A stretch of 64,000 nt of DNA from a virus (lineage: Duplodnaviria > Heunggongvirae > Uroviricota > Caudoviricetes). Shown one piece after another: positions 2,449 to 57,576 of the stretch. A program made the translations under genes and the position numbers. The notes under the pieces were generated by a model. That model made no database searches. It saw only the letters and a list, made by a program, of their open reading frames with translations, and was not told the DNA's origin. Each line of letters begins with the position of its first letter. Positions within the stretch are counted from its first letter, which is position 1. The stretch is taken from the IMG/VR virus record IMGVR_UViG_3300031992_004563, positions 265,798 through 329,797 of that record; one strand, written 5' to 3'.

Positions 2449-2451
2449 TGA

Positions 2452-14274: not shown

Positions 14275-15126
14275 ATGCATTTTGTACATTCATTATGGAC
14301 TAAACCTCTAATAGCTAATAGACGAAATATAGAGTTTAAAACATCATTATTAACAACTACATTATGTAATGCAGTTTCTGTTGCATGGGTTAATCATTTA
14401 GGTGGAAAAATAAACTTATATGCAGATGGTTTAGGAAGAGATATGTTAGGATTTCTTCCTTATGATAATATTTATGAATTACATGTACCTGTTCATATAC
14501 CCGTATGCACATGGGCATGTGGAAAGTTTTTAACATTAGAAAAAATGCCATTAGGCGATGTTCATATTGATGGTGATGTTTTTCTTAAATCTGAAAAACT
14601 TATTGAATTGTGTTCAGATAATTCATATGATATGGTTGTTCAATCAATAGAAAATGATAAAACAACACTTAAAAAATACTATTCAGCCGTAAGAGAACTA
14701 TTAAAGAAAAATAATATTAAGCCAAAAACATGTTCATTAGAAGAAAGTCCATCATATAATTGTGGAACAATTGGATTTTTTAATAATGAATTAAAACAAA
14801 AATATTTGATTGAATATTTTACAATGCTAAATAACATTATTAATAATAAATCATTATTAGTTGATTTAAATAAAAATTTAAATGCAATTCCTGATTTAAT
14901 AATGGAACAACAATTTCTTTATGAATTGGCTACACCATATAAAGTTAATAATCTATTAGGTGATGCAGAAACAATGTATGATAATGCAATTAAACTTAAC
15001 TATCAACATATTCTTGGAGGATTTAAAGAACAGCAATTGGATAAAATTTTGCAAGAACTTAAATATGTTGATGAAAAAATTTATAAAGAAACATTAAAAT
15101 ATATTAACTTTTTAATTAATTTTTAA
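14275..15126 (+). CDS. Hypothetical protein
   Basis: 283-aa ORF, TAA stop, followed by a hairpin. Confidence 0.5.
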   Translation: MHFVHSLWTKPLIANRRNIEFKTSLLTTTLCNAVSVAWVNHLGGKINLYADGLGRDMLGFLPYDNIYELHVPVHIPVCTWACGKFLTLEKMPLGDVHIDGDVFLKSEKLIELCSDNSYDMVVQSIENDKTTLKKYYSAVRELLKKNNIKPKTCSLEESPSYNCGTIGFFNNELKQKYLIEYFTMLNNIINNKSLLVDLNKNLNAIPDLIMEQQFLYELATPYKVNNLLGDAETMYDNAIKLNYQHILGGFKEQQLDKILQELKYVDEKIYKETLKYINFLINF

Positions 15127-28946: not shown

Positions 28947-29708
28947 TCAGTCTATGTGCCAATAATTATTCCTAATAACTTTATATTCATATACATTCTG
29001 TGTATTATAGTCAATATCATCATTTTGTTTATCACGAATATCAGAAGGATCAATATTTTTATCTTCTTGAATAACTAATGGAATTGATGGAATATATGTA
29101 TTTAATTCTGGTTTATCCATTGGAGCCCTGTATAAAGGCCCATCAGCAACCCAAAGAAATTTATCAATAAAATCCAAATAATATTCCATTCCTTTTCGTG
29201 AAAGAGCATACATTGATGTAGTCCATAACCCAACACCTGGGTGTTTTACCCACCATTTAGACTCATCCATATAGTCTTTAATTCTTGGATCAGCCGTAAA
29301 ACCACCAAATTGAAGAATATCAAAATCTTCTGGAATATTTTTTAAAAATTCTTCCCATGCAACATGATCTTTTAAAAATCTAATATCATCTTCCATAATA
29401 AGACAATATTCATATCCTTGGTCATATGCTTGTTTAACCATTGAATAATGATTATGCGTGCAATCATATTCATTAGGTTTTGTTAATTTACCTAATTTAT
29501 TTTGATTTAGAACATACATCATCACTTTATTGTATTTCGAAAATGGTACAGTTGTTCTAATATCAAGTTCTTCTTGTGTATATAAATCTTCTAAAAGACC
29601 AAAATCTCGAAGTTGTTTAAGCATTAAATCTCTCCTATCCTTACGAGTGGAGAGATTTAACATAAAGATATGTTGAAATTTTGAAAGTAGTGTATAGTAA
29701 ATATTCAT
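28947..29708 (-). CDS. Glycosyltransferase family 25-like (LPS/LOS glycosyltransferase)
   Basis: N-terminal motif LNLSTRKDRRDLMLKQL is typical of GT25. Confidence 0.6.
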   Translation of the reverse strand: MNIYYTLLSKFQHIFMLNLSTRKDRRDLMLKQLRDFGLLEDLYTQEELDIRTTVPFSKYNKVMMYVLNQNKLGKLTKPNEYDCTHNHYSMVKQAYDQGYEYCLIMEDDIRFLKDHVAWEEFLKNIPEDFDILQFGGFTADPRIKDYMDESKWWVKHPGVGLWTTSMYALSRKGMEYYLDFIDKFLWVADGPLYRAPMDKPELNTYIPSIPLVIQEDKNIDPSDIRDKQNDDIDYNTQNVYEYKVIRNNYWHID

Positions 29709-35470: not shown

Positions 35471-36049
35471 ATGAAAGTAATTATTATTGAGGGGCCTGAT
35501 AATACTGGTAAAAATACATTAATAAATCATGTTTTGGATAATAATGAAATTGTGAAAATTATTCATTGCAGTAAGCCAAAACAATTGGACAATGTTTTAT
35601 ATCATCAATTCATTTCATTTAAAAAATTAGCTGAAGAAGCAATTAAAGATTATAGTTTAAATTCAGATGAGGTTTTAATTTATAATCGTTATCATATTGG
35701 CGAATATGTTTATGGTCAATTATATAGAGATGAAAATCCTGAACAAATTCTTGAAGTAATTCATCTTATTGAAGATACAATATTAAATGCAATTCCTCAA
35801 GATAATATTTCATATATTCAATTGTTATCTCGTTCAGCAAAACTTTTACAAAACAATGATGATAATAAATCTTTATCTAATGCAAGACTTGATTTAATTG
35901 AAAAAGAAAATCAATTATTTAAAGAAGCTTTTGAAAAATCAAAATTTAAAAACAAACATATAATTTATATCGATAAAGAAAATACAGATACATTTAAAAC
36001 AAGAGAACAAATTATTGACGAATTTGATATTTTTACAAAAAATGATTAA
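35471..36049 (+). CDS. P-loop (d)NMP kinase-like protein (thymidylate/deoxynucleotide monophosphate kinase family)
   Basis: N-terminal IIIEGPDNTGKNT P-loop in the typical dNMP/thymidylate kinase context. Confidence 0.5.
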   Translation: MKVIIIEGPDNTGKNTLINHVLDNNEIVKIIHCSKPKQLDNVLYHQFISFKKLAEEAIKDYSLNSDEVLIYNRYHIGEYVYGQLYRDENPEQILEVIHLIEDTILNAIPQDNISYIQLLSRSAKLLQNNDDNKSLSNARLDLIEKENQLFKEAFEKSKFKNKHIIYIDKENTDTFKTREQIIDEFDIFTKND

Positions 36050-36058
36050 TAATAGTTT

Positions 36059-36778
36059 ATGTTAAAAACTGAAGATATTAAAAATCTATTAAAAGAAAAA
36101 TATAAAAATGAAGAATTTAGAGTAACTAAATCTGGTGTAAAAACTGTTGAACTTCAAGGTATTCAGTTTGAAGCTGATAAAGATTCTATTATTCGTGAAC
36201 CAAATTATGATTATGCAAATAGGGAAATTCAATGGTATGAATCACAATCATTAAATGTTAATGATATTCCAGGTGGAGCACCAACAATTTGGAAACAATG
36301 TGCAGATGTAAATGGTGATATTAATTCAAATTATGGTTGGATGATTTATTCAAAGGAAAATGGCTCACAATATAATAACTGCGTTTGGCAATTAGTTAAT
36401 GACCCAACTACAAGAGAAGCTTGTATGATTTATAATAGACCAAGTATGCATGTTGATGCAACATCAAATCATAAACATGATTTTTGTTGTACTTATGCAG
36501 TTCAATGTTTCTTAAATGAAGTTAATAGATATCACACATCGCCAGATGGTGATAAAGTTAAAATTGGTTTAGATTATTATACATTAGATTATATTGTATA
36601 TCAAAGAAGTTGTGATGCAGTATTTGGTTATAATAATGATGTTTTATGGCATACATATGTACGTGATAAAATGCTAAAAGATTTTAATGAAATGGGTTTA
36701 AATGTTAAAAAAGGCATAATAAATTATAATTGTGGCAGTTTACATGTTTACGAGAGACACTTTAAGTTCTTAGACTAA
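36059..36778 (+). CDS. Thymidylate synthase/pyrimidine hydroxymethylase family enzyme, divergent (Cys-Cys in place of the canonical Pro-Cys-His)
   Basis: YQRSCDAVFGYNNDVLWH aligns with ThyA YQRSCDVFLGLPFN. The active-site region HDFCCTYAVQCF aligns with PPCHAFFQFYV. Confidence 0.6.
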   Translation: MLKTEDIKNLLKEKYKNEEFRVTKSGVKTVELQGIQFEADKDSIIREPNYDYANREIQWYESQSLNVNDIPGGAPTIWKQCADVNGDINSNYGWMIYSKENGSQYNNCVWQLVNDPTTREACMIYNRPSMHVDATSNHKHDFCCTYAVQCFLNEVNRYHTSPDGDKVKIGLDYYTLDYIVYQRSCDAVFGYNNDVLWHTYVRDKMLKDFNEMGLNVKKGIINYNCGSLHVYERHFKFLD

Positions 36779-40311: not shown

Positions 40312-40698
40312 TTATTTTGATTTTTTAGTTCTTGTTTTCTTTGGTTTTTCTTCTATTTCACCTTTAGCGATTTTCTCAGCTTTTTCTTTTTCTTTAGCCT
40401 CACGTTTCAATCGGCGTTGTTCATCACCCCAGGCTTTTGCACGTTCAACGAGTTCTTTATGTTTTTGCTCAGCTTCTTCAGGGTGTTCACGTTCCCAATT
40501 AATTTGGTCCCAAACAAAACTTCCATAACCAAGTTTCCAACTATGATAATGAGGACACATTAAAAACCAATGGCTATTACCTTTATATTTTTCAATACAT
40601 GCACCTTTCATTATGCATGTTTTCTTACATACATCCTCTTGAAATTGAGGAACATCGCTAGCTTTATAAAAGTCTTTATTTGCCATATTATTCTTCAA
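40312..40698 (-). CDS. Hypothetical protein (Cys/His-rich N-terminus, lysine-rich tail)
   Basis: 128-aa ORF. Confidence 0.45.
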   Translation of the reverse strand: MKNNMANKDFYKASDVPQFQEDVCKKTCIMKGACIEKYKGNSHWFLMCPHYHSWKLGYGSFVWDQINWEREHPEEAEQKHKELVERAKAWGDEQRRLKREAKEKEKAEKIAKGEIEEKPKKTRTKKSK

Positions 40699-41560
40699 TA
40701 AGATTCATTTCTATGAGCATGCTATATAATTTTTTCAAATCACATGCATAGTATCCATAAGAACAATATCCACCATAATAATCAGATTCGCCTCGTTCCT
40801 CTACAGTTACAGTTTCACGATAAAGTTTCTTATATTGAAGCATTGAAATGTTAGGACATACTTCAGTAAGCAAATCATCAAATTCTTTAAATTCGCTTGG
40901 TTGGGCTTCAGCACTAATATTACCACTAGCACCAGTATAATCACCCCATGTCCCGCCAAGACACCATTCTTCACTTCTCATTTCATCTTGTTTCATCCAA
41001 GATTCACGTATTTTAAACAAAGATTCATACTTATTCATTTTATGTACCTCCATTTCTTTAATTACAAATTCAATTTCACTAAATTCTTTAGATAGACCAT
41101 CAATATCAGGTTTTTCAAATTCTGCATGCTTAATAGTAATATGTGCCTTACGATCTTGTTGACGAATGCTATCATTATATAAACATGTATCTCTATCTTC
41201 TTTAAAATATACAAATTGAATTTTAACATGTTCACTATCAAAAATATAATGTGTACATTCATTATAAATGGCTTTAACCAATTTATGTTGTGTTTCATTG
41301 GTTAAAAATAATCCATCTATAATCCAATGATTATAATTTGCATTATGATGTATAATTGAATAGCAAAAACTTGAGTCTCTTAAAACATTTGTAAAAGATC
41401 TTTTCTCACGTTTAAGATAATCTTTATCAAAATCAATGTAGCATGTATTTGAATTAAATGTAGATAAAAACTTTTCACCATTATTGGCACTTTGTGCATA
41501 ATGAGTTTTACCACTACCAGGCAATCCAATTAAAATTTCTACTAATACTTGATTTTTCAT
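40688..41560 (-). CDS. P-loop kinase, polynucleotide kinase-like (Walker A GLPGSGKTH)
   Basis: N-terminal ILIGLPGSGKTHYA resembles PNK/AAA_33-type kinases. Lies immediately downstream of the RNA ligase gene. Promoter motif at 41579-41627. Confidence 0.5.
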   Translation of the reverse strand: MKNQVLVEILIGLPGSGKTHYAQSANNGEKFLSTFNSNTCYIDFDKDYLKREKRSFTNVLRDSSFCYSIIHHNANYNHWIIDGLFLTNETQHKLVKAIYNECTHYIFDSEHVKIQFVYFKEDRDTCLYNDSIRQQDRKAHITIKHAEFEKPDIDGLSKEFSEIEFVIKEMEVHKMNKYESLFKIRESWMKQDEMRSEEWCLGGTWGDYTGASGNISAEAQPSEFKEFDDLLTEVCPNISMLQYKKLYRETVTVEERGESDYYGGYCSYGYYACDLKKLYSMLIEMNLIEE

Positions 41561-41578
41561 AACTATTCAATTTTTAAA

Positions 41579-41627
41579 TTAACGATACAAAATTAATATA
41601 TTTTATTTAAATTAAAAAATAGAAGTT
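41579..41627 (-). promoter_or_regulatory. Conserved promoter motif copy (…AACTTCTATTTTTTAA…TAATTTTGTATCGTTAA…)
   Basis: Lies between the terminator hairpin 41636-41658 and the ATG at 41560. Confidence 0.55.
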
Positions 41628-41635
41628 AAAAATTT

Positions 41636-41658
41636 AAAGGTGGAATTGCACCACCTTT
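41636..41658 (-). terminator. Hairpin terminator (AAAGGTGGAATTGCACCACCTTT)
   Basis: Perfect inverted repeat after the RNA ligase stop codon. Confidence 0.5.
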
Positions 41659-41661
41659 AAA

Positions 41662-43335
41662 TCAATTTTCATCTGGATTTTCTTCACCATATCTTTCTTG
41701 CATTTCATAATCTGATGTAACACCTTTATCCATATCTTCAGCTTCCTTACCAAGGAATTTCAAACATTTAAGTTTGAATGCTTCTGCTACAGGGTCATCA
41801 TTAATTCTAAGAACGATACCTTCACGAGGAAGTTCATTTTTACACATTGGTTCATTTTCTTCCATTCCAAAGTTTTTATCCTTTTTCATTCTAGAAAGAA
41901 CATTTTCATTCCAATGATTTCTAAGATCCAAATCAGGATAAAGATCTTTCATTAAGCCATTATACAAAATTGTAATTGGTTTAATTTTTGAAGCATCATT
42001 AGTATTATTTTCTTTATCACGTTTTTGAAGTGCAGGAATAAGAGTATGCAATGTATAATCATGTACATCTTGAACATTAAATTCATATACATCCCCATTT
42101 TCAAGTACATGTTTAATACGGTAAATCATTAAATAATTATCACCTGTTTTACAACCATAGTCATAAACTTTTCCACCAAGTGATTGGATTCCCGATGTAG
42201 AATTTGTTACATATCCACAAATTTCTCCATAAAATGTCATTCCTTGAGGAATAAAATCTTTAAGGATTTTGTAATATGTTGCCCAAATATCTACTCCATA
42301 AAAACCTCCAGACTTGCCACCATATTTAAATCTAAACAATGATTTAAATTTATCCCAAAAAGTAATTTCTGGTTCATTTTGGTTTTTACGTTTCTTTTTC
42401 TTAAACATTGATTTCAATGTGCTTGTAATATGAAGCCACCATGCATAAATTATTTGGTAAATAATTGCAATCATATTTTGATTTTTAATTACACCACGAG
42501 AGCTATAAATTACATCATAGCCTTCAGTAGTAAATTGCAAAACTTTAGGCAAATATACAAAAGCTTTTTCATACAAACCACCATACTTAGGTTTATGAAC
42601 TTTTACATTACCAAAAATCGCTGATGAACCATGTTCCTTAACGGTAATTGATACTGAAGTTTCAGGTTTAATTCTATTCATTGAACGTTGAAGTTGTTCA
42701 GTATCATAATGAAATGCAAATTGTCCAGGAATCATACGATCATATTTTTTAATTTGCTTTTCATGACGGCCTTTTTTAACTCCACCATTTCGGCCTTTTA
42801 CTTCAGGAACATATGCTTTTACAAACAAACGTTCACCTACAGTATCAAAATCTTCACCAAGATGTGCAGACCAATCAAAATTTTCCAAGTCTGCTTCGTA
42901 TTCACCCATTTGGTATGGAGAAATAAGATAACCCATTGACATTACACCACGAAGTTTCTTCATACGAACACGACAGTTCTTACCAAAATAACCTTTATTA
43001 AGATTCAAATAATGTTGAATCTCTTCTTCAGATGCATTTTGTTTTCTCATTTTTTCCAAATGAGGACCTACATCTTGATAATTTGAATTAAGTGTGATAT
43101 CATCAAATTGATTAGTTGAAGATAGAAACAAACTATCAAGTTGACATTCATTGGCTACATAAATCATATAGCTTCCTGTTTTAACCAAATCTTTACGAAC
43201 TACGATATCTCTGCCTTCAACCATCACTGTGGCAAGAAAATCGGAATTTTCAATTGGTGTCAATTCACCAATTTGAACAACAGTTGCACAATATTCATGT
43301 GACATGTCTTTTGATTGTGATAATACATTTTCCAT
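41662..43335 (-). CDS. ATP-dependent RNA ligase-like protein (N-terminal OB-like domain as in DraRnl/NgrRnl-type ligases; motif I KEHGS; motif IV EGIVLR; motif V KLKCLKF)
   Basis: N-terminus …YCATVVQIGELTPIENSDFLATVMVEGRDIVVRKD… resembles the N-domain of Rnl5-type ligases. Nucleotidyltransferase motifs are present. Confidence 0.55.
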   Translation of the reverse strand: MENVLSQSKDMSHEYCATVVQIGELTPIENSDFLATVMVEGRDIVVRKDLVKTGSYMIYVANECQLDSLFLSSTNQFDDITLNSNYQDVGPHLEKMRKQNASEEEIQHYLNLNKGYFGKNCRVRMKKLRGVMSMGYLISPYQMGEYEADLENFDWSAHLGEDFDTVGERLFVKAYVPEVKGRNGGVKKGRHEKQIKKYDRMIPGQFAFHYDTEQLQRSMNRIKPETSVSITVKEHGSSAIFGNVKVHKPKYGGLYEKAFVYLPKVLQFTTEGYDVIYSSRGVIKNQNMIAIIYQIIYAWWLHITSTLKSMFKKKKRKNQNEPEITFWDKFKSLFRFKYGGKSGGFYGVDIWATYYKILKDFIPQGMTFYGEICGYVTNSTSGIQSLGGKVYDYGCKTGDNYLMIYRIKHVLENGDVYEFNVQDVHDYTLHTLIPALQKRDKENNTNDASKIKPITILYNGLMKDLYPDLDLRNHWNENVLSRMKKDKNFGMEENEPMCKNELPREGIVLRINDDPVAEAFKLKCLKFLGKEAEDMDKGVTSDYEMQERYGEENPDEN

Positions 43336-43691: not shown

Positions 43692-45071
43692 TTAAAATAA
43701 CTCTTCGCTTTTTGGCTTTTCTTTAGTCTTTGGCTTTGTTTCTTCTTCATCCTCAATAGGTGTATTATCCAATGCACATAATTCATTATAGTATTCATTT
43801 TCACCATCGTGGAAGCAGTCATCAACCATTTTTTGTGCAATAGAACGTGCATCACAATTTTTCTTAAATGCATCAAAAATCCTATTGCGTAACTCATCAT
43901 ACTTTTCTTTATTACTTGCAAGCTCATCCATTTGTGCAAGACATTCATCAAGATTTGATAAGTCCTTTTTAATGAATACACCAAGTCCTAATTCAAGTGC
44001 TGTTTTATTTAGACACTTTGTGTTTTCATCATACATACGACATGCATTACCTGCATTCCAATCTAACAATGGAATTGAACCCATTTGAATAATCTCAAAT
44101 ACTGAATATTCAAAATCATCTCCATAACATCCATCAGTTTTAAGATGGAAAAAGTCACATCCAAATGCAGACTTTGCAACGCATCTCATTCCTTCTTCAC
44201 GTTTATATGCATCAAATACATAACACCAACCTTTTTCACGTTTAGGGGTATCAAGCATTGGATCATCATATGCAATACCATTTTCTTCTCTCCACTTTTT
44301 ATCTGAAGCCATTATACAAGCCTTAGATGGAAGACGGTTTCCTTGCTCATCAAATGAATAAAGCAAGTCAGGAATTGTAGATACATTAATTGTACGTTTA
44401 ATACCACGCATTTCCAACTCATAATCATGTGCATAAAATTTATCACGACCACGAAGTAAACGAGTTGGGTCTTTAAATCCAGAATGACGACCAAGATAAG
44501 TTATTCGACGTAATTTCTCATCAAATGGAACCCATTGTTTCTTATCTTCATCTGAATAATTATGTGGAAGAATTAATTGAACAAAACGTTTTCTAAATTC
44601 TTCTTCACCACACGCTGCACAAATTTTTTGTGCTACCATTGCCTTTGGTGCAAATGTAATAATTTTATCAAATGCCAACCAAAATTCTGAATTATGCAAT
44701 AGTGGTCCATAATATGCAGCAAATCCCAATACATTATGATCATTACATACAATTGCTTTTCTTGTAGTAATTTTATTCATAACCAAATCCATCCAGAGAT
44801 TATGATATTTTTCATCTGCTTTTTTCTCCATAATGGAATTAATGATAACCAAATCAGCTTCATTAATATGATTAACTGTATTTTCAGAATAATCATATTC
44901 TACGGCGAATGGAATGCTTTGTGTGCCACCATCCATCTCAGCCTTTTCATGTGCTTTTACATAAATAACTTCAACTTCATGGCCAGCAAGCTTCAAGCCT
45001 TTATTTAATTCTATAACATATCGGGTTACACCAGAACCCTCAATGCGTGCCATCAATTGTACAATTTTCAT
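43692..45071 (-). CDS. Glycosyltransferase, GT4-like N-terminal domain
   Basis: N-terminus MKIVQLMARIEGSGVTRYVIELNKGLKLAGHEVEVIY is typical of GT-B/GT4 enzymes. Confidence 0.5.
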   Translation of the reverse strand: MKIVQLMARIEGSGVTRYVIELNKGLKLAGHEVEVIYVKAHEKAEMDGGTQSIPFAVEYDYSENTVNHINEADLVIINSIMEKKADEKYHNLWMDLVMNKITTRKAIVCNDHNVLGFAAYYGPLLHNSEFWLAFDKIITFAPKAMVAQKICAACGEEEFRKRFVQLILPHNYSDEDKKQWVPFDEKLRRITYLGRHSGFKDPTRLLRGRDKFYAHDYELEMRGIKRTINVSTIPDLLYSFDEQGNRLPSKACIMASDKKWREENGIAYDDPMLDTPKREKGWCYVFDAYKREEGMRCVAKSAFGCDFFHLKTDGCYGDDFEYSVFEIIQMGSIPLLDWNAGNACRMYDENTKCLNKTALELGLGVFIKKDLSNLDECLAQMDELASNKEKYDELRNRIFDAFKKNCDARSIAQKMVDDCFHDGENEYYNELCALDNTPIEDEEETKPKTKEKPKSEELF

Positions 45072-45074
45072 ATA

Positions 45075-46415
45075 TTAAAATAAACTTTGTTTTGTTGCTA
45101 TATTAAGTACTTCTTGTTTTGTATTATCTTGAAATGCTACATTAGAAGTATGTTCTCGATTATTATATTCCCAATTATTCAAAATGTTTACAACTTGAGA
45201 AACAATAAATTTCGCTGTGTTAACTGGAACATTTTGACCAATTTTTGCAAGATTTGTTTTATCTCCATATATAATAAAATCTTCTGGCATACCCATTAAT
45301 GAAAGATATTCCCTTATTGTGCAAAATCTCTTACCAGTATAATGAATCATATTAGGTATTGATCTAAATTGAACAGATGGAAAATAATCCTTAAATACCC
45401 ATGCATCTTCGCCATAATAATTCAAACCTTGTGAAGTTTTTTCAAAGATATGTTTAAAATACTTTTCAACCTTTGCCTTTTCTTCATCAGTGTATTTATC
45501 AGATTCTTTAACAAATTTCAAAAAATCTTCAAGTTTACCAGTTTTCATTATATATGTTATAATGTTTCTTTTATCTTTTATTTCATCTGCCCAATTTTCA
45601 CCATAATTTTTAACATTATAATCAATAGCTGCGTAATTATGAATAAATGATTCTACTGGTGTTTGTTGAGGAGCGTCCTTTGATATTGATTCAAAAAATT
45701 CTGGAATAAGAATAGAATCTTTTTCATAACCAAACAATGGTGGTTTTTGTTCTGTGTTTTTTCCTTGCCATTGAGTAAAAATAACAAATGTTCTTGGTCT
45801 GCGTTGGCAATTATGATGAAGAACTGTATCTGTTTTATAATAAAGAACAGAATATCCTGCATTCTTTGCAATATCCTCCAATGATGCACGAACATCATCG
45901 CCTCTGTCACCAACCAATGTAGGTGCATTTTCAAACACATATACTTTAGGTTTAATAACATTTAAAGTATAATATGTAATCCATTGCATATTACAATTTC
46001 TGGATTCTTTTGTTTCATTAGCAGCTTTAGTAACAACTGATAAACCTGAACATACAGGAACTGCAACAACTAAATCCATATCTGAAAAATCTGGCAATGG
46101 AACATCATCTTCAAGTCCTTTTCGTACTTTTAAATCAGTTGAATGAATGTCCATATCAAACATCTTTCTATTTGTTATTTGATAATATGGAACTTTATAT
46201 CCATCCTTTGTAGATTTAAATAACCATTCTCTTAAATTATATTCATTACCTGCACCTGTTATAATAGGATTATCTTTATCACCAGCTACAGTTATTGCAT
46301 CAAGCCCATCATACGATAAAATCCATTCGGCTTGATGGCCAATGGCTTTTAACGCTCCTATATACATTCCGCCTGTTAATGGTTGAATACATCCCCATTT
46401 AATTTCTTTTGACAT
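45075..46415 (-). CDS. DNA (cytosine-5)-methyltransferase family protein, divergent
   Basis: Motif I-like PLTGGMYIGA, motif IV-like AVPVCSGLS, motif VI YVFENAP, motif VIII CQRRPR, motif X IGQNVPVNTAKFI. Confidence 0.55.
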   Translation of the reverse strand: MSKEIKWGCIQPLTGGMYIGALKAIGHQAEWILSYDGLDAITVAGDKDNPIITGAGNEYNLREWLFKSTKDGYKVPYYQITNRKMFDMDIHSTDLKVRKGLEDDVPLPDFSDMDLVVAVPVCSGLSVVTKAANETKESRNCNMQWITYYTLNVIKPKVYVFENAPTLVGDRGDDVRASLEDIAKNAGYSVLYYKTDTVLHHNCQRRPRTFVIFTQWQGKNTEQKPPLFGYEKDSILIPEFFESISKDAPQQTPVESFIHNYAAIDYNVKNYGENWADEIKDKRNIITYIMKTGKLEDFLKFVKESDKYTDEEKAKVEKYFKHIFEKTSQGLNYYGEDAWVFKDYFPSVQFRSIPNMIHYTGKRFCTIREYLSLMGMPEDFIIYGDKTNLAKIGQNVPVNTAKFIVSQVVNILNNWEYNNREHTSNVAFQDNTKQEVLNIATKQSLF

Positions 46416-46423
46416 ATAATATT

Positions 46424-46786
46424 TTATTTTCTTTTTCTATATACAAAATCCAAAAATCGTTTAATTGGACAAATTTTTTCTTTTGGTTTTTCTTTTTCGA
46501 CATTGTGATATGATCCACGATTACATACATTAAAAATATGTGGTGTGCTATAACCAGATACATCTAAAAAGTCATCAGATAAATCATCAAACATATCTTC
46601 CAAATCATCTGTTATATCATCAATCATATCATCTATATCATCTATTAAATCATCTACATCATCCGATAAGTATTTTATATCATCCATATCAGATGCATAG
46701 TATTTATTTGATTTAATTTTATAATTAGATGAAAATGGTTTACTTAAATCTTTATATTTAAAATGTCTATATATCATTCTTTGCAA
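46424..46786 (-). CDS. Hypothetical protein with a DD-rich repeat segment
   Basis: 120-aa ORF. Confidence 0.4.
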   Translation of the reverse strand: MQRMIYRHFKYKDLSKPFSSNYKIKSNKYYASDMDDIKYLSDDVDDLIDDIDDMIDDITDDLEDMFDDLSDDFLDVSGYSTPHIFNVCNRGSYHNVEKEKPKEKICPIKRFLDFVYRKRK

Positions 46787-47090: not shown

Positions 47091-47723
47091 TCACTTACCA
47101 TAATAATCTCCGTAAAAATACTTTAAACCATTTGATTTAACATAATTATTATATAACACTTTTAAGTGATGTTTATTAAAATACTCTTCAGGCGTATAAC
47201 CAATTAAAGGCTTTTCTACATCTCCAATTTCAATATCTTTTAATGTATCGAATACAACTAAAACAAAATTGGCAGTGTTTTTATGAATTTTTGGATGAGT
47301 ATTTTCTAATTTATTTACCAACCAATTATACTCTTTTTGATATGAAAAATCTTTTCCAAAATATGCTTTAGCCGCACCAAGCCAATCACATATAAGTTCT
47401 ACTGCATATTTATATGGCATTTCAATACATGTTGTTCCATTGTCATAATTATCTGTCCAATACTCATAATGATGAGGATTGCGGCCTTTATGATGTTGCC
47501 ATGCCAATGAATAACCTTTATCCGCTTTACATGCATTAATTGGAGAACTTGAGCCTTGATAATATTTTACAGACTCCCAAAATTCAATCCATGAAAATTT
47601 GGACATATCATGCATAATACCTTGCCAATAAAGACCAGCTTTAAAGCAATAATATGCAACCCAATATTTATGAATACAAATTTTCTTAAAATGCAACCAA
47701 GTATTTTTAAGCGTTATTTTCAT
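47091..47723 (-). CDS. Hypothetical protein (His-rich motif WQHHKGRNPHHYEYW)
   Basis: 210-aa ORF. Confidence 0.45.
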   Translation of the reverse strand: MKITLKNTWLHFKKICIHKYWVAYYCFKAGLYWQGIMHDMSKFSWIEFWESVKYYQGSSSPINACKADKGYSLAWQHHKGRNPHHYEYWTDNYDNGTTCIEMPYKYAVELICDWLGAAKAYFGKDFSYQKEYNWLVNKLENTHPKIHKNTANFVLVVFDTLKDIEIGDVEKPLIGYTPEEYFNKHHLKVLYNNYVKSNGLKYFYGDYYGK

Positions 47724-50346: not shown

Positions 50347-50598
50347 TTATCTATCTGCCCATGGGCCAGATTTTTCTTTAAATTTTACACATAAATCATT
50401 ATCATAACGATTATATGTTACATCAAAACCCGCTTCAGTTAACAATTGCTGTAATCCATCTTCATATGGGATTACAGTAAAAGAATTATTCATTAATCCT
50501 TGTTTAATTCTCGGTAATGCTTTTTCAAAGGCAATTTGTGCCTGCATTTGTTCTGCTATTGTCATCATATTATTCAAGTAATTTGCATTCTTCTTCAC
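50347..50598 (-). CDS. Small hypothetical protein
   Basis: 83-aa ORF. Confidence 0.35.
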   Translation of the reverse strand: MKKNANYLNNMMTIAEQMQAQIAFEKALPRIKQGLMNNSFTVIPYEDGLQQLLTEAGFDVTYNRYDNDLCVKFKEKSGPWADR

Positions 50599-51247
50599 TA
50601 TATAATGAATGGAGTTTTTCTAACCACCATTTAGTTTTTACTTTAACAGATGGACGTCTTTGACCTTTAAGTAAAGTACTGCGTTTAAATACCACACCTT
50701 CTTTGACTGTTGGGTATTTTGCATCTGCCTGTGTCCAATCATTTTCCTGTATATCTTTAATAATTTCAGCAGTTAGAGGGCCTTTATATATAAGTTCAGG
50801 TATTTCTATACCACAGCCATTAAATATTGTGTAATATTCTTCTGGTTCAATATATCCCTTTTTCTTAAGAAATACATCTGTAAGAGCTAATCTCATTTCA
50901 TCACCTTCAACATGCTTACCAGCAAATGAATTATCTCCATACCATTCAAACACAAATGTTAATTCATCTACACCATTAAAGACTTTTTTCTTTGCAGAAT
51001 TTTCTTTAATGAGTTTAGCCAAAATATCTTGATAATTTGAATTATAAAACCATTGAACAACTGGTCCAAACTGTTCACTGTTTTCATCTACAGTAACAGT
51101 ACGTGAACCACATGGGCCAAATGTTTTCTTGCGACAATTATATGCCACAACAAAATTTTGTCCATCTAATTTATTAAAACCCCAAACAATATCTCCTTTT
51201 AAAGAGCCATCATCTTGGATTCTCGGTATACTATCGTAATGTTTCAT
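50570..51247 (-). CDS. Minimal ATP-dependent ligase-family nucleotidyltransferase (motif I KLDG, III FVFEWYG, IV EGVVFK, V KVKTKWW); RNA ligase-like
   Basis: Covalent nucleotidyltransferase motifs occur in canonical order in a 225-aa protein. Confidence 0.5.
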   Translation of the reverse strand: MKHYDSIPRIQDDGSLKGDIVWGFNKLDGQNFVVAYNCRKKTFGPCGSRTVTVDENSEQFGPVVQWFYNSNYQDILAKLIKENSAKKKVFNGVDELTFVFEWYGDNSFAGKHVEGDEMRLALTDVFLKKKGYIEPEEYYTIFNGCGIEIPELIYKGPLTAEIIKDIQENDWTQADAKYPTVKEGVVFKRSTLLKGQRRPSVKVKTKWWLEKLHSLYSEEECKLLE

Positions 51248-53010: not shown

Positions 53011-53427
53011 TTATTTTATTAAATATTTCTTATATGTTTCAAAAATAGATAAAATGTTATCTCTTCCAGGAGGATTGCTTGAATGGCATTCATAATATGG
53101 AAATTCAAATCCATAATCTTCTATAATATCACATATTTCTACTGCAACATTATATCCTGTTTTTTCATCATCACTTATGTATGAGCCTAAATCATGGTCA
53201 AGACAAAAACAATTAACATATTCATTTGGATCTTCTTTTATCCATTTATTGCTCCAATCTACCCATGCATCATATGATTTACACCATACGATTTCAACAT
53301 CATGCCCATCAACCAAAGATAAAAATTCCTTTGGAACAACTTTATTCCAATAAGTAAATAAACTCATTGGATCACGTTGATCATCAATCCAAATTACTCT
53401 GTACTTTGTCTGCTTCATTATTGTCAA
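53011..53427 (-). CDS. Hypothetical protein
   Basis: 138-aa ORF. Confidence 0.45.
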   Translation of the reverse strand: MTIMKQTKYRVIWIDDQRDPMSLFTYWNKVVPKEFLSLVDGHDVEIVWCKSYDAWVDWSNKWIKEDPNEYVNCFCLDHDLGSYISDDEKTGYNVAVEICDIIEDYGFEFPYYECHSSNPPGRDNILSIFETYKKYLIK

Positions 53428-54189: not shown

Positions 54190-55359
54190 TTAATATGATT
54201 CAATATTAAGATCATGGAAACATTGTGCAATTTCCGTTTGATCACCCATTACTTTGCCAGCATCGTCACTTACTTTAATACAATTAACCATTGGGCTATT
54301 TGCATTCATTCGACACATTGTAAGTTTCATTACAATATTCTGACTTGGCGTATTGGTATCACATGTAAGATTAGTTCCAATACCGGCAGAACATTTAATT
54401 TTGCCTTTGCAATAATCAGCAATTGCTTTAAATTTTGGGAATGTTAATGCATTAGAGAATACAATTGTTTTGTCCTTTGGATCAATTCCCTTAGATTTAT
54501 AAGCTTCAATTGCCATTTGGGTGAATTCATACTCATCACCTGAGTCATGACGAACACCATCAAACAATTTTGCATGCTTCAAACTAAATGTATCGAAGAA
54601 TGCTTTACTTCCATAAGTATCTGTCAATGCAATACCAAGAGCACCATCATAAACAGATACCCAATCCTCATAGGCTTTATAGTTTGCATTGCGATAACCA
54701 AACTGTGCGCCATGGAACATTACCCACTCATGAGCAACAGTGCCAATAGGCTTCATATCATACTTCATTGCAAGGTGTACATTGGATGTTCCTACACAAT
54801 AAAGTGCATTTTCTTTAAGACGTTTTACAACGGCATCCTGAACGGCATAACTGAAACGACGACGAGTACCAAACTCACTAAATACCAATCCATGCTCATT
54901 GGACAATGCAATTTTCTTATCGAGACGAGAAAGTACATCAGCCATATTAACGATATGAACACTATTAGAAATTTCAGATACAATTGCAAGACATGCAATC
55001 TCCCAAAGTGTTAAACTATAAAGTTTATCAGCTGCAGTAATATGCAAAATTTGACTATCATCAAGCCATGCAGTTACTTTAGTTGAATCAAATCTAAATC
55101 CACGAAGCCATTCCCAATAGAATTGAGGAATATATGTAATATGATTTTTACACCAATAAAACTCTTCGTCAGTAAGACTTAAATTTTCAAGTTCTTTAAT
55201 ACTTTTGATAATTCTATCCAATTCACCACGAGTTCGTTTAACTCGATTTCGGTCAAAAAACTCAAATACACCTTCAGCTTCAGGATAAAGCTTCATGTAT
55301 GCATAACTCATACTAAGTTTGTACAAGTCAGTGTCCAAAATACTTTTAATTACTCCCAT
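54190..55359 (-). CDS. pncB: Nicotinate phosphoribosyltransferase
   Basis: Aligns with E. coli PncB at ILDTDLYKLSM, FSEFGTRRRFSYAVQDAVVKRL, IGTVAHEW, GIALTDTYGS and VRHDSGDEYEF. Confidence 0.85.
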   Translation of the reverse strand: MGVIKSILDTDLYKLSMSYAYMKLYPEAEGVFEFFDRNRVKRTRGELDRIIKSIKELENLSLTDEEFYWCKNHITYIPQFYWEWLRGFRFDSTKVTAWLDDSQILHITAADKLYSLTLWEIACLAIVSEISNSVHIVNMADVLSRLDKKIALSNEHGLVFSEFGTRRRFSYAVQDAVVKRLKENALYCVGTSNVHLAMKYDMKPIGTVAHEWVMFHGAQFGYRNANYKAYEDWVSVYDGALGIALTDTYGSKAFFDTFSLKHAKLFDGVRHDSGDEYEFTQMAIEAYKSKGIDPKDKTIVFSNALTFPKFKAIADYCKGKIKCSAGIGTNLTCDTNTPSQNIVMKLTMCRMNANSPMVNCIKVSDDAGKVMGDQTEIAQCFHDLNIESY

Positions 55360-55362
55360 ATC

Positions 55363-56835
55363 TTATTTTAAATTAAAATGTTGTTCAATATATTCATATA
55401 ATGCTTCTGGAGTGTTTTCAATAATGTTATCCAAAAGAGCATCTTTCATCATTTTTTTAATTTCACCAATTTGTTTACCTGGTTCAAGATGGTATTTCTC
55501 CATAAGATCATTGCCAGTTACGCATGGTTGGAACATACGAACATAATCCTTATGAGCAATATCTTCAATACGTTCCATTAATTCATTATATCTAAATTGG
55601 AAGTTTTGTTTCTTGTTTTCGTTCTTTGTCGTAATATCAGAATTAGCAAGAATCATCAATTCCTTGATATAACCATTTGCATCATTAACCAAACGACGAA
55701 CACCTGCATCGGTTACTTCATCTCCACAAATTGCTTGAGGACGCATATGAAGTTGAACCATAAGAGCAGTAAATTTCATATTTTCATCCTGAGGCATTTT
55801 TAACCGTTTAAATATAGATTCCACCATCTTTGCACCTACATATTCATGATTGTCAAAAGAATAACCATTGTGGGCATCATAATGACGTGTAGGTATTTTA
55901 CCTATGTCATGTAATAGTGCGGCAATACGAAGATATACATTCTCAGTTTGTAAACAAACACTTCGTAAAACATCTAATGTATGCCAATAGATATTTTTAT
56001 GTTTATCTGTATATCGAGGACCACACTTACCAGTAGTATCAAGTGCATCCACTTCAGGCAAAAACTTTTTAAGTAATCCAGTATTCTTTAAAATCTCAAT
56101 GCCATCAGCTGCATAATCTGAACTCATAATTTTTAAGAATTCTGTCATAATACGTTCAGCTGAAATAATATCCAAACGATCCAAATTTTTTACAATTGCA
56201 TTATATGTAGTTTGTTCAATGCCAAAACCAAGTTTACATGCAAAACGAACTGCACGTAACATACGCAATGGGTCATCAGAAAAAGTAATATCTGGATTAG
56301 TAGGAGTTTTAATAGTACCAGTTTTCAAATCTTCAATACCACCAAATGGATCAACCAATTCTCCAAAATGATCACTATTAAGGCAAATAGCCATTGCATT
56401 AATTGTAAAGTCACGACGAAGTTGGTCATCTTGAAGAGTGCCTTCCTCAACAATAGGTTTACGACTACCACGCTCATAAGATTCCTTACGTGCTCCGACA
56501 TATTCTACTTCAAAATCACCAAATCGAACCTGTGCAGTTCCAAAGTTTTCAAAAATAGACAATTTAATATTTTTGAAATTAGTTTGTGTTTTAAGATATT
56601 GCTCAAAATGACGAGCCATTACTTGCCCTTTTCCAACTACAACGACATCAATATCGTCATTAGGTCTGCCAAGAAGCAAATCACGAACATAACCACCAAC
56701 AACATAACAAGGATATTGAAGGTGATCAGCCACATATTTGATATTGCATAAAACTCCAAAAACTTCTTTATTTCGTTTTTGAATTTCTTTTAAAATACTT
56801 TCTTTGTCTAATTGTTTTAACATATATTTTTTCAA
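55363..56835 (-). CDS. cca: tRNA nucleotidyltransferase (CCA-adding enzyme, class II head domain plus HD domain)
   Basis: GGYVRDLLLGRPNDDIDVVVVG, RRDFTINAM and HD motif HTLDV…LLHDIGK. Confidence 0.8.
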   Translation of the reverse strand: MKKYMLKQLDKESILKEIQKRNKEVFGVLCNIKYVADHLQYPCYVVGGYVRDLLLGRPNDDIDVVVVGKGQVMARHFEQYLKTQTNFKNIKLSIFENFGTAQVRFGDFEVEYVGARKESYERGSRKPIVEEGTLQDDQLRRDFTINAMAICLNSDHFGELVDPFGGIEDLKTGTIKTPTNPDITFSDDPLRMLRAVRFACKLGFGIEQTTYNAIVKNLDRLDIISAERIMTEFLKIMSSDYAADGIEILKNTGLLKKFLPEVDALDTTGKCGPRYTDKHKNIYWHTLDVLRSVCLQTENVYLRIAALLHDIGKIPTRHYDAHNGYSFDNHEYVGAKMVESIFKRLKMPQDENMKFTALMVQLHMRPQAICGDEVTDAGVRRLVNDANGYIKELMILANSDITTKNENKKQNFQFRYNELMERIEDIAHKDYVRMFQPCVTGNDLMEKYHLEPGKQIGEIKKMMKDALLDNIIENTPEALYEYIEQHFNLK

Positions 56836-56928: not shown

Positions 56929-57576
56929 TTAGATTACATTAATTTGACAAGATCTCATTACTTCAAGTGCAGCCTCATGTTTTTCAGGAGTAACACCTGC
57001 ACAGCATTTACTATCTACTGTAATCTCCGCAAAATCATATGTAAATGCTTTAAGAATAAGTGCATTAGATACTACACAAATATCTGTACAGAATCCACAC
57101 ATTTCAATCTCCATAGGAATAGGCTCATTTTGATGGTCTTTTTCCAAATTCATAATACACTCAGGCAGAGACACATGATTCTCGAAAAATTCTTTCCATT
57201 GGCCAACAAGTTTCTCCTTAATGCGTCCACCCTCTACAGAGCCAAAAGTAAACTTAGGAATAAACTTGATTTCCAATCCTTGTTTTGCTTTTTCCATTGC
57301 AGCATCTTCAATTTGACTAGTTACTCGCCAACCACATTGAATTTCATATCCTTGATCACATATACAATGCTCTACTGGAAGCTTCTTGCCCTCACGGGTT
57401 TCAAGATAATTATTAAAATGGGTATCCATTGTCAAGAAAATAGCATCACCATCAAATGTCAAAATCTTGTCTACAATATTAGGCACTGCTTTCTGCGCCT
57501 CTGTATTTTCTAATGTTCCATAGATGAAGTCATTCTGAGCATCAACTACAACCAAAACTTTAATCTTGTCTTTCAT
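56929..57576 (-). CDS. pncA: Isochorismatase-family hydrolase, probable nicotinamidase
   Basis: VLVVVDAQNDF and GFCTDICVVSNA match the PncA/isochorismatase fold. First gene of an operon with cca and pncB. Confidence 0.65.
   Translation of the reverse strand: MKDKIKVLVVVDAQNDFIYGTLENTEAQKAVPNIVDKILTFDGDAIFLTMDTHFNNYLETREGKKLPVEHCICDQGYEIQCGWRVTSQIEDAAMEKAKQGLEIKFIPKFTFGSVEGGRIKEKLVGQWKEFFENHVSLPECIMNLEKDHQNEPIPMEIEMCGFCTDICVVSNALILKAFTYDFAEITVDSKCCAGVTPEKHEAALEVMRSCQINVI

What the first reader, a model, noticed from the sequence alone, without database searches (positions are those of the whole stretch)
43692..46415. C5-cytosine-methyltransferase-family protein immediately upstream of a GT4 glycosyltransferase
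45075-46415 carries recognisable C5-MTase motifs (I, IV, VI, VIII, X) but with an atypical motif IV (PVCSGLS rather than PCQGFS). The next gene downstream is a GT-B/GT4 glycosyltransferase. The pairing recalls phage systems where a base modification is further glycosylated, as in glucosyl-hmC. Together with the ThyA-like gene this suggests layered DNA modification as an anti-restriction strategy.
Basis: inference. Interest (0 to 1): 0.55.

Follow-up and report, generated by a model that had tools for sequence, protein, structure and literature searches.

The report
Phage hmC-sugar module with odd methyltransferase
This phage carries a T4-style kit for replacing cytosine with sugar-coated hydroxymethylcytosine, and joined to the sugar-adding gene is an uncharacterised type of cytosine methyltransferase that keeps this company in many unrelated phages, which is puzzling because the kit removes the enzyme's normal substrate.

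Summary
45075-46415 (-) encodes a 446-aa C5-cytosine-methyltransferase-fold protein with motif IV PVCSGLS. Three bases downstream, 43692-45071 (-) encodes a 459-aa GT-B glycosyltransferase.

The glycosyltransferase is not a generic GT4. It belongs to the T4 DNA alpha-glucosyltransferase family: Pfam AGT above cut-off, PHROG E 3.6e-36, and a model matching T4 AGT at E 4e-20 and TM 0.83.

The ThyA-like gene (36059-36778) is a T4 gp42-type dCMP hydroxymethylase with the Asp residues diagnostic of 5hm-dCMP synthesis. A dNMP kinase precedes it. So the glycosylated base comes from the ThyA homolog, not the methyltransferase. No TET/JBP was found.

The unexpected part is the methyltransferase. It belongs to a virtually phage-only clade with its own motif signature (xPLxGG, xC[S/A]GLS, ENAP, QNVP). 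It fails NCBIfam's dcm cut-off. Its genes lie next to hydroxymethylase, kinase and DNA-glycosyltransferase genes in rumen jumbo phages, an environmental (IMG/VR) T4-like lineage, Pseudoalteromonas phage XG4 and Bacillus phage G.

Most likely (about 0.5) it adds 5mC to cytosines that escape replacement. A non-canonical reaction on hmC-DNA is not excluded (about 0.25).

The parts
45075..46415 (-). 446-aa C5-cytosine-methyltransferase-fold protein. It belongs to a virtually phage-only clade with signature motifs QPLTGG (I), NEY (II), PVCSGLS (IV, catalytic Cys122), ENAP (VI, Glu162), QRRPR (VIII) and GQNVP (X).
   Evidence: Pfam PF00145 E 3.4e-18. NCBIfam TIGR00675 47 bits, below the 100.65 cut-off. 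AF2 model pLDDT 89.9; Foldseek top hits are DNA C5-MTases. Alignments A1 and A2. Clade signature across 150 representatives.
43692..45071 (-). 459-aa GT-B DNA glycosyltransferase of the T4 alpha-glucosyltransferase (AGT) family. Predicted to glycosylate 5hmC in DNA; the sugar donor is not assignable.
   Evidence: Pfam AGT PF11440 34.7 bits against a cut-off of 25. phrog_2888 alpha-glucosyltransferase E 3.6e-36 over residues 1-410. PDB T4 AGT E 1e-11. The model's top 9 PDB hits are all T4 AGT (E 4e-20, TMt 0.83); the next family is at 1e-9. Gly14 (T4 G15), Asp111/His112 (T4 D115/H116) and Glu321/Glu326 are conserved; T4 His114 is Asn110 here.
36059..36778 (+). 239-aa T4 gp42-type deoxycytidylate 5-hydroxymethyltransferase. 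It makes 5hm-dCMP. Key residues are Cys144, Asp141, Asp186 and Asp194.
   Evidence: phmmer against PDB T4 dCMP hydroxymethylase, E 4e-52. tblastn T4 gp42 40% identity, E 1e-53. Diagnostic residues follow PMC13326640.
35471..36049 (+). 192-aa dNMP kinase, inferred functional analogue of T4 gp1. It would phosphorylate 5hm-dCMP on the way to the dNTP pool.
   Evidence: phrog_761 thymidylate kinase E 7e-11. It sits immediately upstream of the hydroxymethylase here and in 12 related loci.

Best explanation
The two ORFs are the post-replicative half of a T4-type cytosine hypermodification module.

Shown by homology:
- A gp42-type hydroxymethylase (36059-36778) and a dNMP kinase (35471-36049) feed 5hm-dCTP into replication.
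- The AGT-family enzyme (43692-45071) then flips hmC out of the duplex and transfers a sugar from an NDP-sugar to its hydroxyl.

Inferred:
- The co-transcribed upstream gene (45075-46415) encodes a catalytically intact, SAM-using member of a virtually phage-only C5-methyltransferase clade.
- It attacks C6 of a flipped cytosine with Cys122 and methylates C5 of those cytosines that entered the DNA unmodified, in sequence contexts set by its fast-evolving target-recognition region.
- The virion DNA would then carry glycosyl-hmC plus 5mC and essentially no bare cytosine.
- The two post-replicative enzymes are co-expressed because they share timing and substrate (nascent phage DNA).

Confidence is about 0.85 for the hmC-plus-sugar part and about 0.4-0.45 for the stated role of the methyltransferase.
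For: Hydroxymethylase and kinase:
- Hydroxymethylase E 4e-52 to T4 gp42.
- It keeps Asp at the positions equivalent to E. coli ThyA L143, D169 and N177. This is the 5hm-dCMP rather than the 5-hydroxy-dCMP signature.
- Kinase assignment.

Glycosyltransferase:
- GT = AGT family.

Methyltransferase is catalytically intact:
- MT fold and catalytic residues Cys122, Glu162, Arg206 and Arg208, plus the ribose-binding acid Glu58, are invariant in the family.

Sequence-specific DNA recognition:
- The target-recognition region (216-345) diverges about twice as fast as the core.
- Tandem or duplicated paralogs occur. Both features are as in sequence-specific DNA MTases.

Gene linkage:
- Among MT loci at least 45% identical to the window protein and with at least 3 kb on both sides, 12 of 14 carry the ThyA-like gene and the kinase within 10 kb, and 11 of 14 carry a DNA-GT.
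- Starting instead from the hydroxymethylase, 21 of 80 loci have an MT-clade gene within 3 kb.

5mC-type case:
- In cyanophage S-TIM54 the MT sits 2 kb from a ThyA homolog with Asp at the N177 position but a ThyA-like PCH active site. That is a likely 5m-dCMP synthase, so post-replicative 5mC would be the same product.

Other:
- No dCTPase homolog was found in the window.
- Strong CpG depletion with TpG/CpA excess (0.55 and 1.28) is compatible with methylated cytosines, but it is not specific.
Against: - A C5-MTase cannot methylate hmC, so the linked pathway depletes its substrate.
- In Pseudoalteromonas phage XG4 a T4 gp56 dCTPase homolog (40% identity) lies 450 bp downstream of the MT. Near-complete replacement is therefore expected there.
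- The clade differs from canonical enzymes at residues that, in M.HhaI, line the site of methyl transfer. My recollection of the Lukinavicius 2012 engineering work is that these are Gln82 and Asn304, here changed to Ser/Ala and Gln. Val121 is changed to Ala. The CmoX paper confirms the role of Asn304.
- Motif I departs from FxGxG.
- The protein fails the NCBIfam dcm cut-off.
- No member of the clade has been assayed, as far as the searched literature shows.
- Only 64 kb of a probably larger than 200 kb genome was seen.
Confidence: 0.5

Rival explanations
1. The methyltransferase-fold enzyme does not write 5mC. It performs different C5 chemistry within the hmC pathway. Candidates are: acting on hmC in DNA (Cys attack at C6, then loss or exchange of the hydroxymethyl group); hydroxymethylating residual cytosine in DNA so that the GT can finish it; or transferring a group other than methyl.
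For: - The clade is tied to hydroxymethylase, kinase and GT genes in at least four phage lineages. It is often translationally coupled to the GT and sometimes sits between alpha-GT-like and weakly beta-GT-like genes.
- It sits next to a dCTPase in XG4.
- Signature substitutions cluster around the transferred-group and C5 pocket. A canonical phage MT in an R-M context keeps PPCQGFS, ENV and GNAVP.
- A natural precedent exists: changing the Asn304-equivalent residue re-tunes the cofactor (CmoX, Arg, Cx-SAM).
- From memory: C5-MTases can add and remove aldehydes at C5 in vitro (Liutkeviciute et al. 2009).
Against: - The SAM ribose-binding acid (Glu58) and most cofactor-side motifs are conserved.
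- No cofactor-synthesis gene such as CmoA is linked.
- The residue at the CmoX position is Gln, not Arg.
- Distant clade members have an ordinary Pro-Cys.
- No direct biochemical evidence exists.
Confidence: 0.25
2. Post-replicative MT -> TET/5mYOX -> GT route, as in Burke et al. 2021. The MT makes 5mC, a dioxygenase oxidises it to 5hmC, and the GT glycosylates that.
For: C5-MT plus GT clusters of this kind are known in metaviromes. Only part of the genome is in the window.
Against: - No Tet_JBP or other dioxygenase hit in the window ORFs of 90 aa or more that were scanned (about 75).
- None in the annotated relatives or in the L013-type cluster.
- A complete pre-replicative hmC route is present instead.
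- Contigs carrying both ThyS and 5mYOX are reported to be very rare.
Confidence: 0.05
3. The MT acts on something other than phage DNA. One option is host (cytosine-containing) DNA, to mark or silence it. The other is RNA, in the manner of Dnmt2, given the tRNA-repair genes nearby.
For: Phage DNA may lack its substrate. The window contains two RNA ligases, a kinase, a CCA-adding enzyme and PTH2.
Against: The conserved neighbours across lineages are DNA-modification genes, not RNA genes. The large DNA-MTase-type recognition domain and the best structural matches are DNA enzymes.
Confidence: 0.1
4. The GT modifies a cell-surface or other non-DNA acceptor, and its position next to the MT is incidental.
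For: GT-B enzymes are mostly non-DNA enzymes. The window has other GT-like genes.
Against: There is a ten-order E-value gap between T4 AGT and the best GT4 structure. All hits in cultured phages are T4-type alpha-GTs or phage G gp306. The gene is conserved in linkage with the hydroxymethylase.
Confidence: 0.03

Closest known systems
T4 glucosyl-hmC pathway (gp42 dCMP hydroxymethylase, gp1 dNMP kinase, alpha-glucosyltransferase)
   Same: Homologs of gp42 (40% identity) and of alpha-GT (fold TM 0.83), plus a dNMP kinase that is a functional analogue of gp1 rather than a demonstrated homolog. The order of events is the same: pre-replicative hmC, then post-replicative glycosylation.
   Different: - No gp56 dCTPase or beta-GT homolog was seen in the window.
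- One of the three glucose-contacting histidines of T4 alpha-GT is Asn, so the sugar is uncertain.
- T4's linked DNA methyltransferase is an adenine enzyme (Dam), not a C5 enzyme.
Phage C5-MT / TET (5mYOX) / GT clusters (Burke et al. 2021 PNAS; bioRxiv 2023.12.21.572611)
   Same: A C5-MT-family gene is clustered with DNA glycosyltransferases and sugar-nucleotide genes.
   Different: There is no dioxygenase, and hmC comes from a ThyA homolog. Whether the published MTs belong to the same clade could not be checked because no sequences are held.
CmoX, DNA cytosine C5-carboxymethyltransferase of Synechococcus phage S-B43 (PMC12783734)
   Same: A phage C5-MTase-fold enzyme that is diverted from plain methylation and used as a handle-maker for hypermodification. 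It is altered at the M.HhaI Asn304 position.
   Different: CmoX has SPPC and Arg at that position and needs a linked CmoA. The window enzyme has PVCS and Gln, and no CmoA is present.
Bacillus phage G gp301 with gp319/gp315/gp313/gp306
   Same: gp301 is the best viral structural match of the MT (E 4e-21). The same module lies within 25 kb in a cultured phage: a hydroxymethylase-type ThyA homolog, kinases, two alpha-GT homologs, a sugar nucleotidyltransferase and a C5-MT.
   Different: Only 26% identity. Motif I is closer to canonical (IFGG) and motif X is QGVP. The genes are dispersed rather than adjacent. They are uncharacterised experimentally.
Orphan and multispecific phage C5-methyltransferases (anti-restriction)
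   Same: Same fold and catalytic residues. Variable recognition domain. Paralogs within one genome.
   Different: Those enzymes keep FxGxG, PCQ, ENV and GN[AS]V, and they work in phages with ordinary cytosine. This clade is found with cytosine-replacement genes.

Membership tests
DNA C5-cytosine methyltransferase (Pfam PF00145 / NCBIfam TIGR00675) | Profile match above the curated cut-off | tested here: inconclusive
   Pfam 66.6 bits against a cut-off of 22, met; the match starts at profile position 26 and so misses motif I. NCBIfam TIGR00675 47 bits against a cut-off of 100.65, not met.
DNA C5-cytosine methyltransferase (Pfam PF00145 / NCBIfam TIGR00675) | Motif IV Pro-Cys nucleophile | tested here: inconclusive
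   Cys122 is invariant, but the preceding residue is Val (PVCSGLS), and Ser replaces the usual Gln after Cys. Distant clade members have PPC or CPC.
DNA C5-cytosine methyltransferase (Pfam PF00145 / NCBIfam TIGR00675) | Motif VI ENV Glu and motif VIII RxR that hold the cytosine | tested here: met
   E162-N163 (ENA), Q204, R206 and R208 are invariant.
DNA C5-cytosine methyltransferase (Pfam PF00145 / NCBIfam TIGR00675) | SAM-binding motifs I (FxGxG), II (acidic residue) and X (GN) | tested here: inconclusive
   Motif II N57-E58 is conserved. Motif I is QPLTGG. Motif X is GQNVP, against GNAVP in a canonical phage enzyme.
DNA C5-cytosine methyltransferase (Pfam PF00145 / NCBIfam TIGR00675) | Two-domain C5-MTase fold | tested here: met
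   Model pLDDT 89.9. Top PDB hits are MET1, DIM2, ZMET2, DNMT1, M.HaeIII and M.HhaI, E 1e-13 to 1e-11.
DNA C5-cytosine methyltransferase (Pfam PF00145 / NCBIfam TIGR00675) | Produces 5-methylcytosine in DNA with SAM | not testable with these tools
   Needs an enzyme assay or methylation-aware sequencing.
T4 DNA alpha-glucosyltransferase family (Pfam AGT PF11440) | Profile and structural match specific to AGT rather than to generic GT-B or GT4 | tested here: met
   Pfam AGT 34.7 bits against a cut-off of 25; GT4 models are below their cut-offs. PHROG alpha-GT E 3.6e-36. Foldseek T4 AGT E 4e-20 and TMt 0.83, against MshA at 1e-9.
T4 DNA alpha-glucosyltransferase family (Pfam AGT PF11440) | UDP-binding and catalytic residues (T4 Gly15, Arg204, Asp115/His116, Glu311) | tested here: met
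   G14, D111, H112, E321 and E326 are conserved and invariant or nearly invariant in 23 homologs. The equivalent of Arg204 was not aligned residue by residue.
T4 DNA alpha-glucosyltransferase family (Pfam AGT PF11440) | Glucose-contacting His114, His116 and His140, which would indicate a UDP-glucose donor | tested here: inconclusive
   His114 is Asn110 here and His116 is kept. His140 was not aligned.
T4 DNA alpha-glucosyltransferase family (Pfam AGT PF11440) | Transfers sugar to 5hmC in duplex DNA | not testable with these tools
   Inferred from homology and from linkage to the hydroxymethylase.
T4 gp42-type 5hm-dCMP synthase (ThyA superfamily) | Catalytic Cys; Asp at the E. coli ThyA N177 position (dCMP specificity); acidic residue at L143 (water access); Asp, not Asn, at D169 (hydroxymethyl rather than hydroxy product) | tested here: met
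   C144, D194, D141 and D186. E 4e-52 to the T4 enzyme.
C5-MT / TET(5mYOX) / GT post-replicative pathway | A Tet_JBP-type dioxygenase encoded beside the MT | tested here: not met
   No such Pfam hit in the window ORFs of 90 aa or more that were scanned, nor in related loci. The window is only part of the genome.
CmoX DNA carboxymethyltransferase | SPPC motif, Arg at the M.HhaI Asn304 position, linked CmoA | tested here: not met
   The window enzyme has VPVC and Gln394. No CmoA-like hit in the window.

The most novel reading that the evidence does not exclude
The clade to which 45075-46415 belongs is not a 5mC writer. It would be a new kind of DNA cytosine-C5 enzyme that works on hmC-substituted phage DNA together with its partner glycosyltransferase. 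Examples: converting or exchanging the hydroxymethyl group at chosen sequences, installing the hydroxymethyl handle on DNA cytosines that escaped replacement, or transferring a non-methyl group. Any of these would yield a base not yet catalogued.
Probability: 0.25. Interest if true: 0.85.

Novelty: new variant of a known kind. Interest (0 to 1): 0.6.

Why it matters
The hmC-plus-sugar part extends the T4 paradigm to uncultured low-GC phages whose closest relatives come mainly from what appear to be rumen and gut metagenomes. That part is expected biology.

The methyltransferase is the interesting part. It belongs to a large clade: 308 representatives at E<=1e-30 in a library clustered at 50% identity. 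The clade is virtually phage-only and has its own active-site signature. It is embedded in pathways that remove the canonical substrate of such enzymes.

Two outcomes are possible.
- These phages deliberately carry two cytosine marks. That would bear on how completely pre-replicative substitution works outside T4, and on which restriction or glycosylase defences are being countered.
- The fold has been recruited to new chemistry. CmoX was recently shown to be such a case, and a second one could yield a new DNA base and a new tool enzyme.

Cultured carriers exist (Bacillus phage G, Pseudoalteromonas phage XG4, cyanophage S-TIM5), so the question is directly testable.

Tried and rejected
- DNA-level search of the region against GenBank phages found nothing.
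- I looked for TET/JBP, dCTPase, MazG or dUTPase domains in about 75 window ORFs, including a pooled scan of 36 small ORFs. None was found. T4 gp56 tblastn also found nothing in the window.
- I considered that the ThyA homolog might be a 5-hydroxy-dCMP synthase, as in RB69 and DLP3. I rejected this because the diagnostic residue is Asp, not Asn.
- I considered CmoX-type carboxymethylation. I rejected it on the Arg and CmoA criteria.
- I tried to check whether the published TET-linked phage MTs belong to this clade. No sequences or supplements are held.
- Iyer et al. 2013 could not be retrieved.
- The Dorea phage hit turned out to be a canonical MTase in an R-M context. I used it as a comparator rather than as a relative.
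- I could not inspect the cofactor pocket of the model because coordinates are not exposed.
- Dinucleotide and palindrome statistics are suggestive (CpG 0.55, CATG 0.58), but they cannot assign a target.
- The unknown ORFs downstream of the MT in the L013-type cluster gave no PDB or Pfam match.
Full report
**What is there.**
The region is transcribed on the minus strand.
- ORF 45075-46415 encodes 446 aa. ORF 43692-45071 encodes 459 aa.
- The stop of the first and the ATG of the second are 3 nt apart. They are almost certainly co-transcribed.
- The window is low-GC (about 29%) phage DNA. It carries a gp23-type major capsid gene at 62406-63926.
- The closest relatives are metagenomic contigs of 140-500 kb. 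Many come from what appear to be rumen or gut samples. That origin rests on two MAG record titles (RUG343, goat ileum) and on my reading of the JGI sample codes.

**The methyltransferase-fold protein.**
- It passes Pfam PF00145 (66.6 bits, cut-off 22). The match starts at profile position 26 and so misses motif I.
- It fails the NCBIfam dcm model (47 bits against 100.65).
- A confident model (pLDDT 89.9) matches only DNA C5-methyltransferases in the PDB.
- In an alignment of 32 homologs the following are invariant:
  - the nucleophile Cys122
  - Glu162-Asn163
  - Gln204, Arg206 and Arg208
  - the ribose-binding Glu58 of motif II
- The enzyme therefore looks catalytically alive and nucleoside-cofactor dependent.
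The protein differs as follows:

| Motif | Canonical | This protein |
|---|---|---|
| I | FxGxGG | QPLTGG |
| IV | PCQ | VCS |
| VI | ENV | ENA |
| X | GNAVP | GQNVP |

- These are clade features, not accidents. Across the 150 best representatives of a profile search of 1.8 billion proteins the pattern holds: xPL[T/I/V]GG, [P/C]xC[S/A/G]GLS, ENAP, QNVP. That search gave 308 representatives at E<=1e-30 and 2,040 at E<=1e-3.
- The Asn-to-Gln position is the one that selects Cx-SAM in the natural carboxymethyltransferase CmoX, where it is Arg.

**The glycosyltransferase.**
- Pfam AGT is above its cut-off, while the GT4 models are below theirs.
- PHROG alpha-glucosyltransferase matches over the full length, E 3.6e-36.
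- The only hits among 50,697 GenBank phages are T4-type alpha-GT genes and Bacillus phage G gp306.
- phmmer finds T4 AGT in the PDB.
- A model (pLDDT 88.4) has T4 AGT chains as its nine best PDB matches (E 4e-20, TMt 0.83). The next family, the GT4 enzyme MshA, is at 1e-9.
- Residues reported as functional in T4 alpha-GT are conserved: Gly14, Asp111, His112 and the Glu321...Glu326 pair.
- One glucose-contacting His is Asn110 here, so I do not assign the sugar.

**The source of the hydroxyl.**
- The ThyA-like ORF 36059-36778 matches T4 dCMP hydroxymethylase at E 4e-52.
- A 2026 study showed that some gp42-like enzymes make 5-hydroxy-dCMP instead, and that Asn at the E. coli ThyA D169 position diagnoses this.
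- The window protein, and all linked homologs I aligned, have Asp there (Asp186). They also have Asp at the N177 position (Asp194, dCMP specificity) and at the L143 position (Asp141).
- It is therefore a 5hm-dCMP synthase by current criteria.
- The ORF just upstream (35471-36049) is a dNMP kinase.
- No TET/JBP domain, and no gp56, MazG or dUTPase homolog, was found in the window.

**Comparative genomics of the methyltransferase.**
- The family has 619 homologs in the 5.8-billion-protein set.
- It is almost absent from 185,579 species genomes. There were four hits, all on MAG contigs; one is the same record as a 410-kb IMG/VR viral contig, that is, a jumbo phage binned as a Firmicutes MAG.
- I collected 89 non-redundant MT loci.
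- Among loci with at least 3 kb on both sides, results by identity to the window protein were:

| MT identity to window | Loci | ThyA-like within 10 kb | Kinase within 10 kb | DNA-GT within 10 kb |
|---|---|---|---|---|
| >=45% | 14 | 12 | 12 | 11 |
| 38-45% | 17 | 4 | 4 | 6 |
| <38% | 6 | 2 | 1 | 4 (all 6 have at least one of the three) |

- In the 38-45% class, two 'orphan' genomes carry the hydroxymethylase about 30-35 kb from the MT.
- Typical gene orders:
  - kinase - hydroxymethylase - (short ThyA paralog) - AGT - MT - (weakly beta-GT-like GT) in jumbo phages
  - hydroxymethylase - MT - AGT (L008)
  - kinase - MT - GT ... GT - MT - ... - hydroxymethylase, with arabinose/NDP-sugar-type genes in between (L029)
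- Searching from the hydroxymethylase side, which is not biased towards the MT, 21 of 80 loci have a clade MT within 3 kb.
- A third lineage of 16 IMG/VR contigs has this order: gp42-like (56% to T4) - dCMP deaminase - a strong AGT (Pfam E 9.6e-90) - MT. The AGT and MT overlap by 4 nt.
- Cultured carriers:
  - Pseudoalteromonas phage XG4: hydroxymethylase - sugar activation - two GTs - MT - gp56-like dCTPase.
  - The cyanophage S-TIM5 group: the MT lies 2 kb from a ThyA homolog with Asp at the N177 position.
  - Bacillus phage G: gp301 is by far the best viral structural match of the MT model (E 4e-21; the next hit is 7e-14). It lies within 25 kb of a hydroxymethylase-type ThyA homolog, kinases, two alpha-GT homologs and a sugar nucleotidyltransferase.
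- The recognition region (residues 216-345) evolves about twice as fast as the core. Paralogs occur in tandem or twice per cluster. Both are as expected for sequence-specific DNA enzymes.

**Interpretation.**
- The hmC-plus-sugar pathway rests on strong homology and a conserved gene set. I hold it at about 0.85.
- The role of the MT is inferred.
- The conservative reading is a SAM-dependent 5mC writer that covers cytosines left unmodified. It would be co-expressed with the other post-replicative enzyme.
- This reading fits four observations:
  - the intact catalytic and ribose-binding residues
  - the variable recognition domain
  - the S-TIM5 case
  - the absence of a dCTPase in the window
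- It fits poorly with the gp56 homolog beside the MT in XG4. It also fits poorly with the clade-wide changes at residues that flank the transferred group.
- These points keep open a non-canonical reaction on hmC-DNA or with another donor (about 0.25).
- The known MT->TET->GT route is unsupported here (about 0.05).
- Action on host DNA or on RNA is possible, but the conserved neighbours do not suggest it (about 0.1).

**Literature.**
- Full-text searches found the TET-linked MT/GT systems, the ThyA-linked GT systems, the 5-hydroxycytosine pathway and CmoX.
- They found no description of a C5-MT clade tied to ThyA-type hmC modules.
- The 2023 preprint only lists 'methyltransferases' among genes seen near GTs.

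**Verdict.**
- The pathway is a new member of a known kind. The conserved, signature-bearing MT partner is an apparently undescribed variant and worth an experiment.

Noticed in passing
window 46424-46786 (-): The 120-aa ORF immediately upstream of the MT has a long Asp-rich acidic tract (DDVDDLIDDIDDMIDDITDDLEDMFDDLSDDF). It could be a DNA-mimic or anti-restriction protein, or it could simply be low complexity. The only hit is a weak PHROG match to a 'virion structural protein'.
   Followed up: no
window 40688-43335, 50570-51247, 53011-53427, 55363-56835 (-): An RNA-repair gene set is present: two RNA ligases (557 aa and 225 aa), an AAA_33 kinase-like protein, a CCA-adding enzyme, and (exact ORFs not assigned) a cREC_REC cyclic-phosphate domain protein and a PTH2 peptidyl-tRNA hydrolase. 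This suggests counter-defence against tRNA-cleaving systems.
   Followed up: partly
window 54190-55359 and 56929-57576 (-): A nicotinate phosphoribosyltransferase and an isochorismatase/nicotinamidase-like protein. This is an NAD salvage pair, possibly a counter to NAD-depleting defences.
   Followed up: no
window 1627-3036 (-), 14275-15126 (+), 28947-29708 (-): Further sugar-related genes are present: an NAD-dependent epimerase, a PLOD-type GT fragment, DUF6734, and a GT25 'glucosyltransferase' (phrog_2835). They might add a second sugar to DNA or modify the host surface. The GT25 gene is syntenic near the hydroxymethylase in relative L004.
   Followed up: no
L006:8162-8737, L025:6811-7386, L027:4270-4860, L043:4233-4823: In jumbo relatives a second, shortened ThyA paralog (about 190 aa) follows the hydroxymethylase. 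It is 25% identical to it, keeps the Cys and RS(N)D motifs, and lacks the segment around INSNYGW. It has no Pfam hit and is absent from the window. Function unknown.
   Followed up: partly
window, whole: CpG is strongly depleted (observed/expected 0.55) with TpG/CpA excess (1.28). CATG (0.58) and CTAG (0.54) are the most under-represented palindromes. This could reflect cytosine methylation and deamination, host restriction avoidance, or low-GC background.
   Followed up: partly
L003:3369-4613: A close relative (MT 89% identical) carries an IS605 OrfB/TnpB-like gene inserted next to the small RNA ligase gene. No counterpart was seen at the corresponding place in the window, which suggests a recent mobile-element polymorphism.
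   Followed up: no
L001:7022-7552 (Pseudoalteromonas phage vB_Psh_XG4, unannotated record): A T4 gp56 dCTPase homolog (40% identity, E 4e-40) lies just downstream of the clade MT. Pfam does not recognise it.
   Followed up: yes
L013 (IMGVR_UViG_3300008107_000017, 12-33 kb): A distant clade MT (30% identical) sits inside the replication module. It is surrounded by an elaborate amino-sugar pathway: KDO8P-synthase-like, DegT aminotransferase, hexapeptide acetyltransferase, two epimerases, kinase, nucleotidyltransferase, HAD, and GT2, GT1 and GT-B enzymes. No ThyA or TET lies within 21 kb. This is possibly a complex DNA glycan.
   Followed up: partly
window 31013-32965 (-) and 47091-47723 (-): A 650-aa SPFH/Band-7 domain protein and a DUF5662 protein. 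The latter has a His-rich motif and is conserved just upstream of the MT in close relatives only.
   Followed up: no
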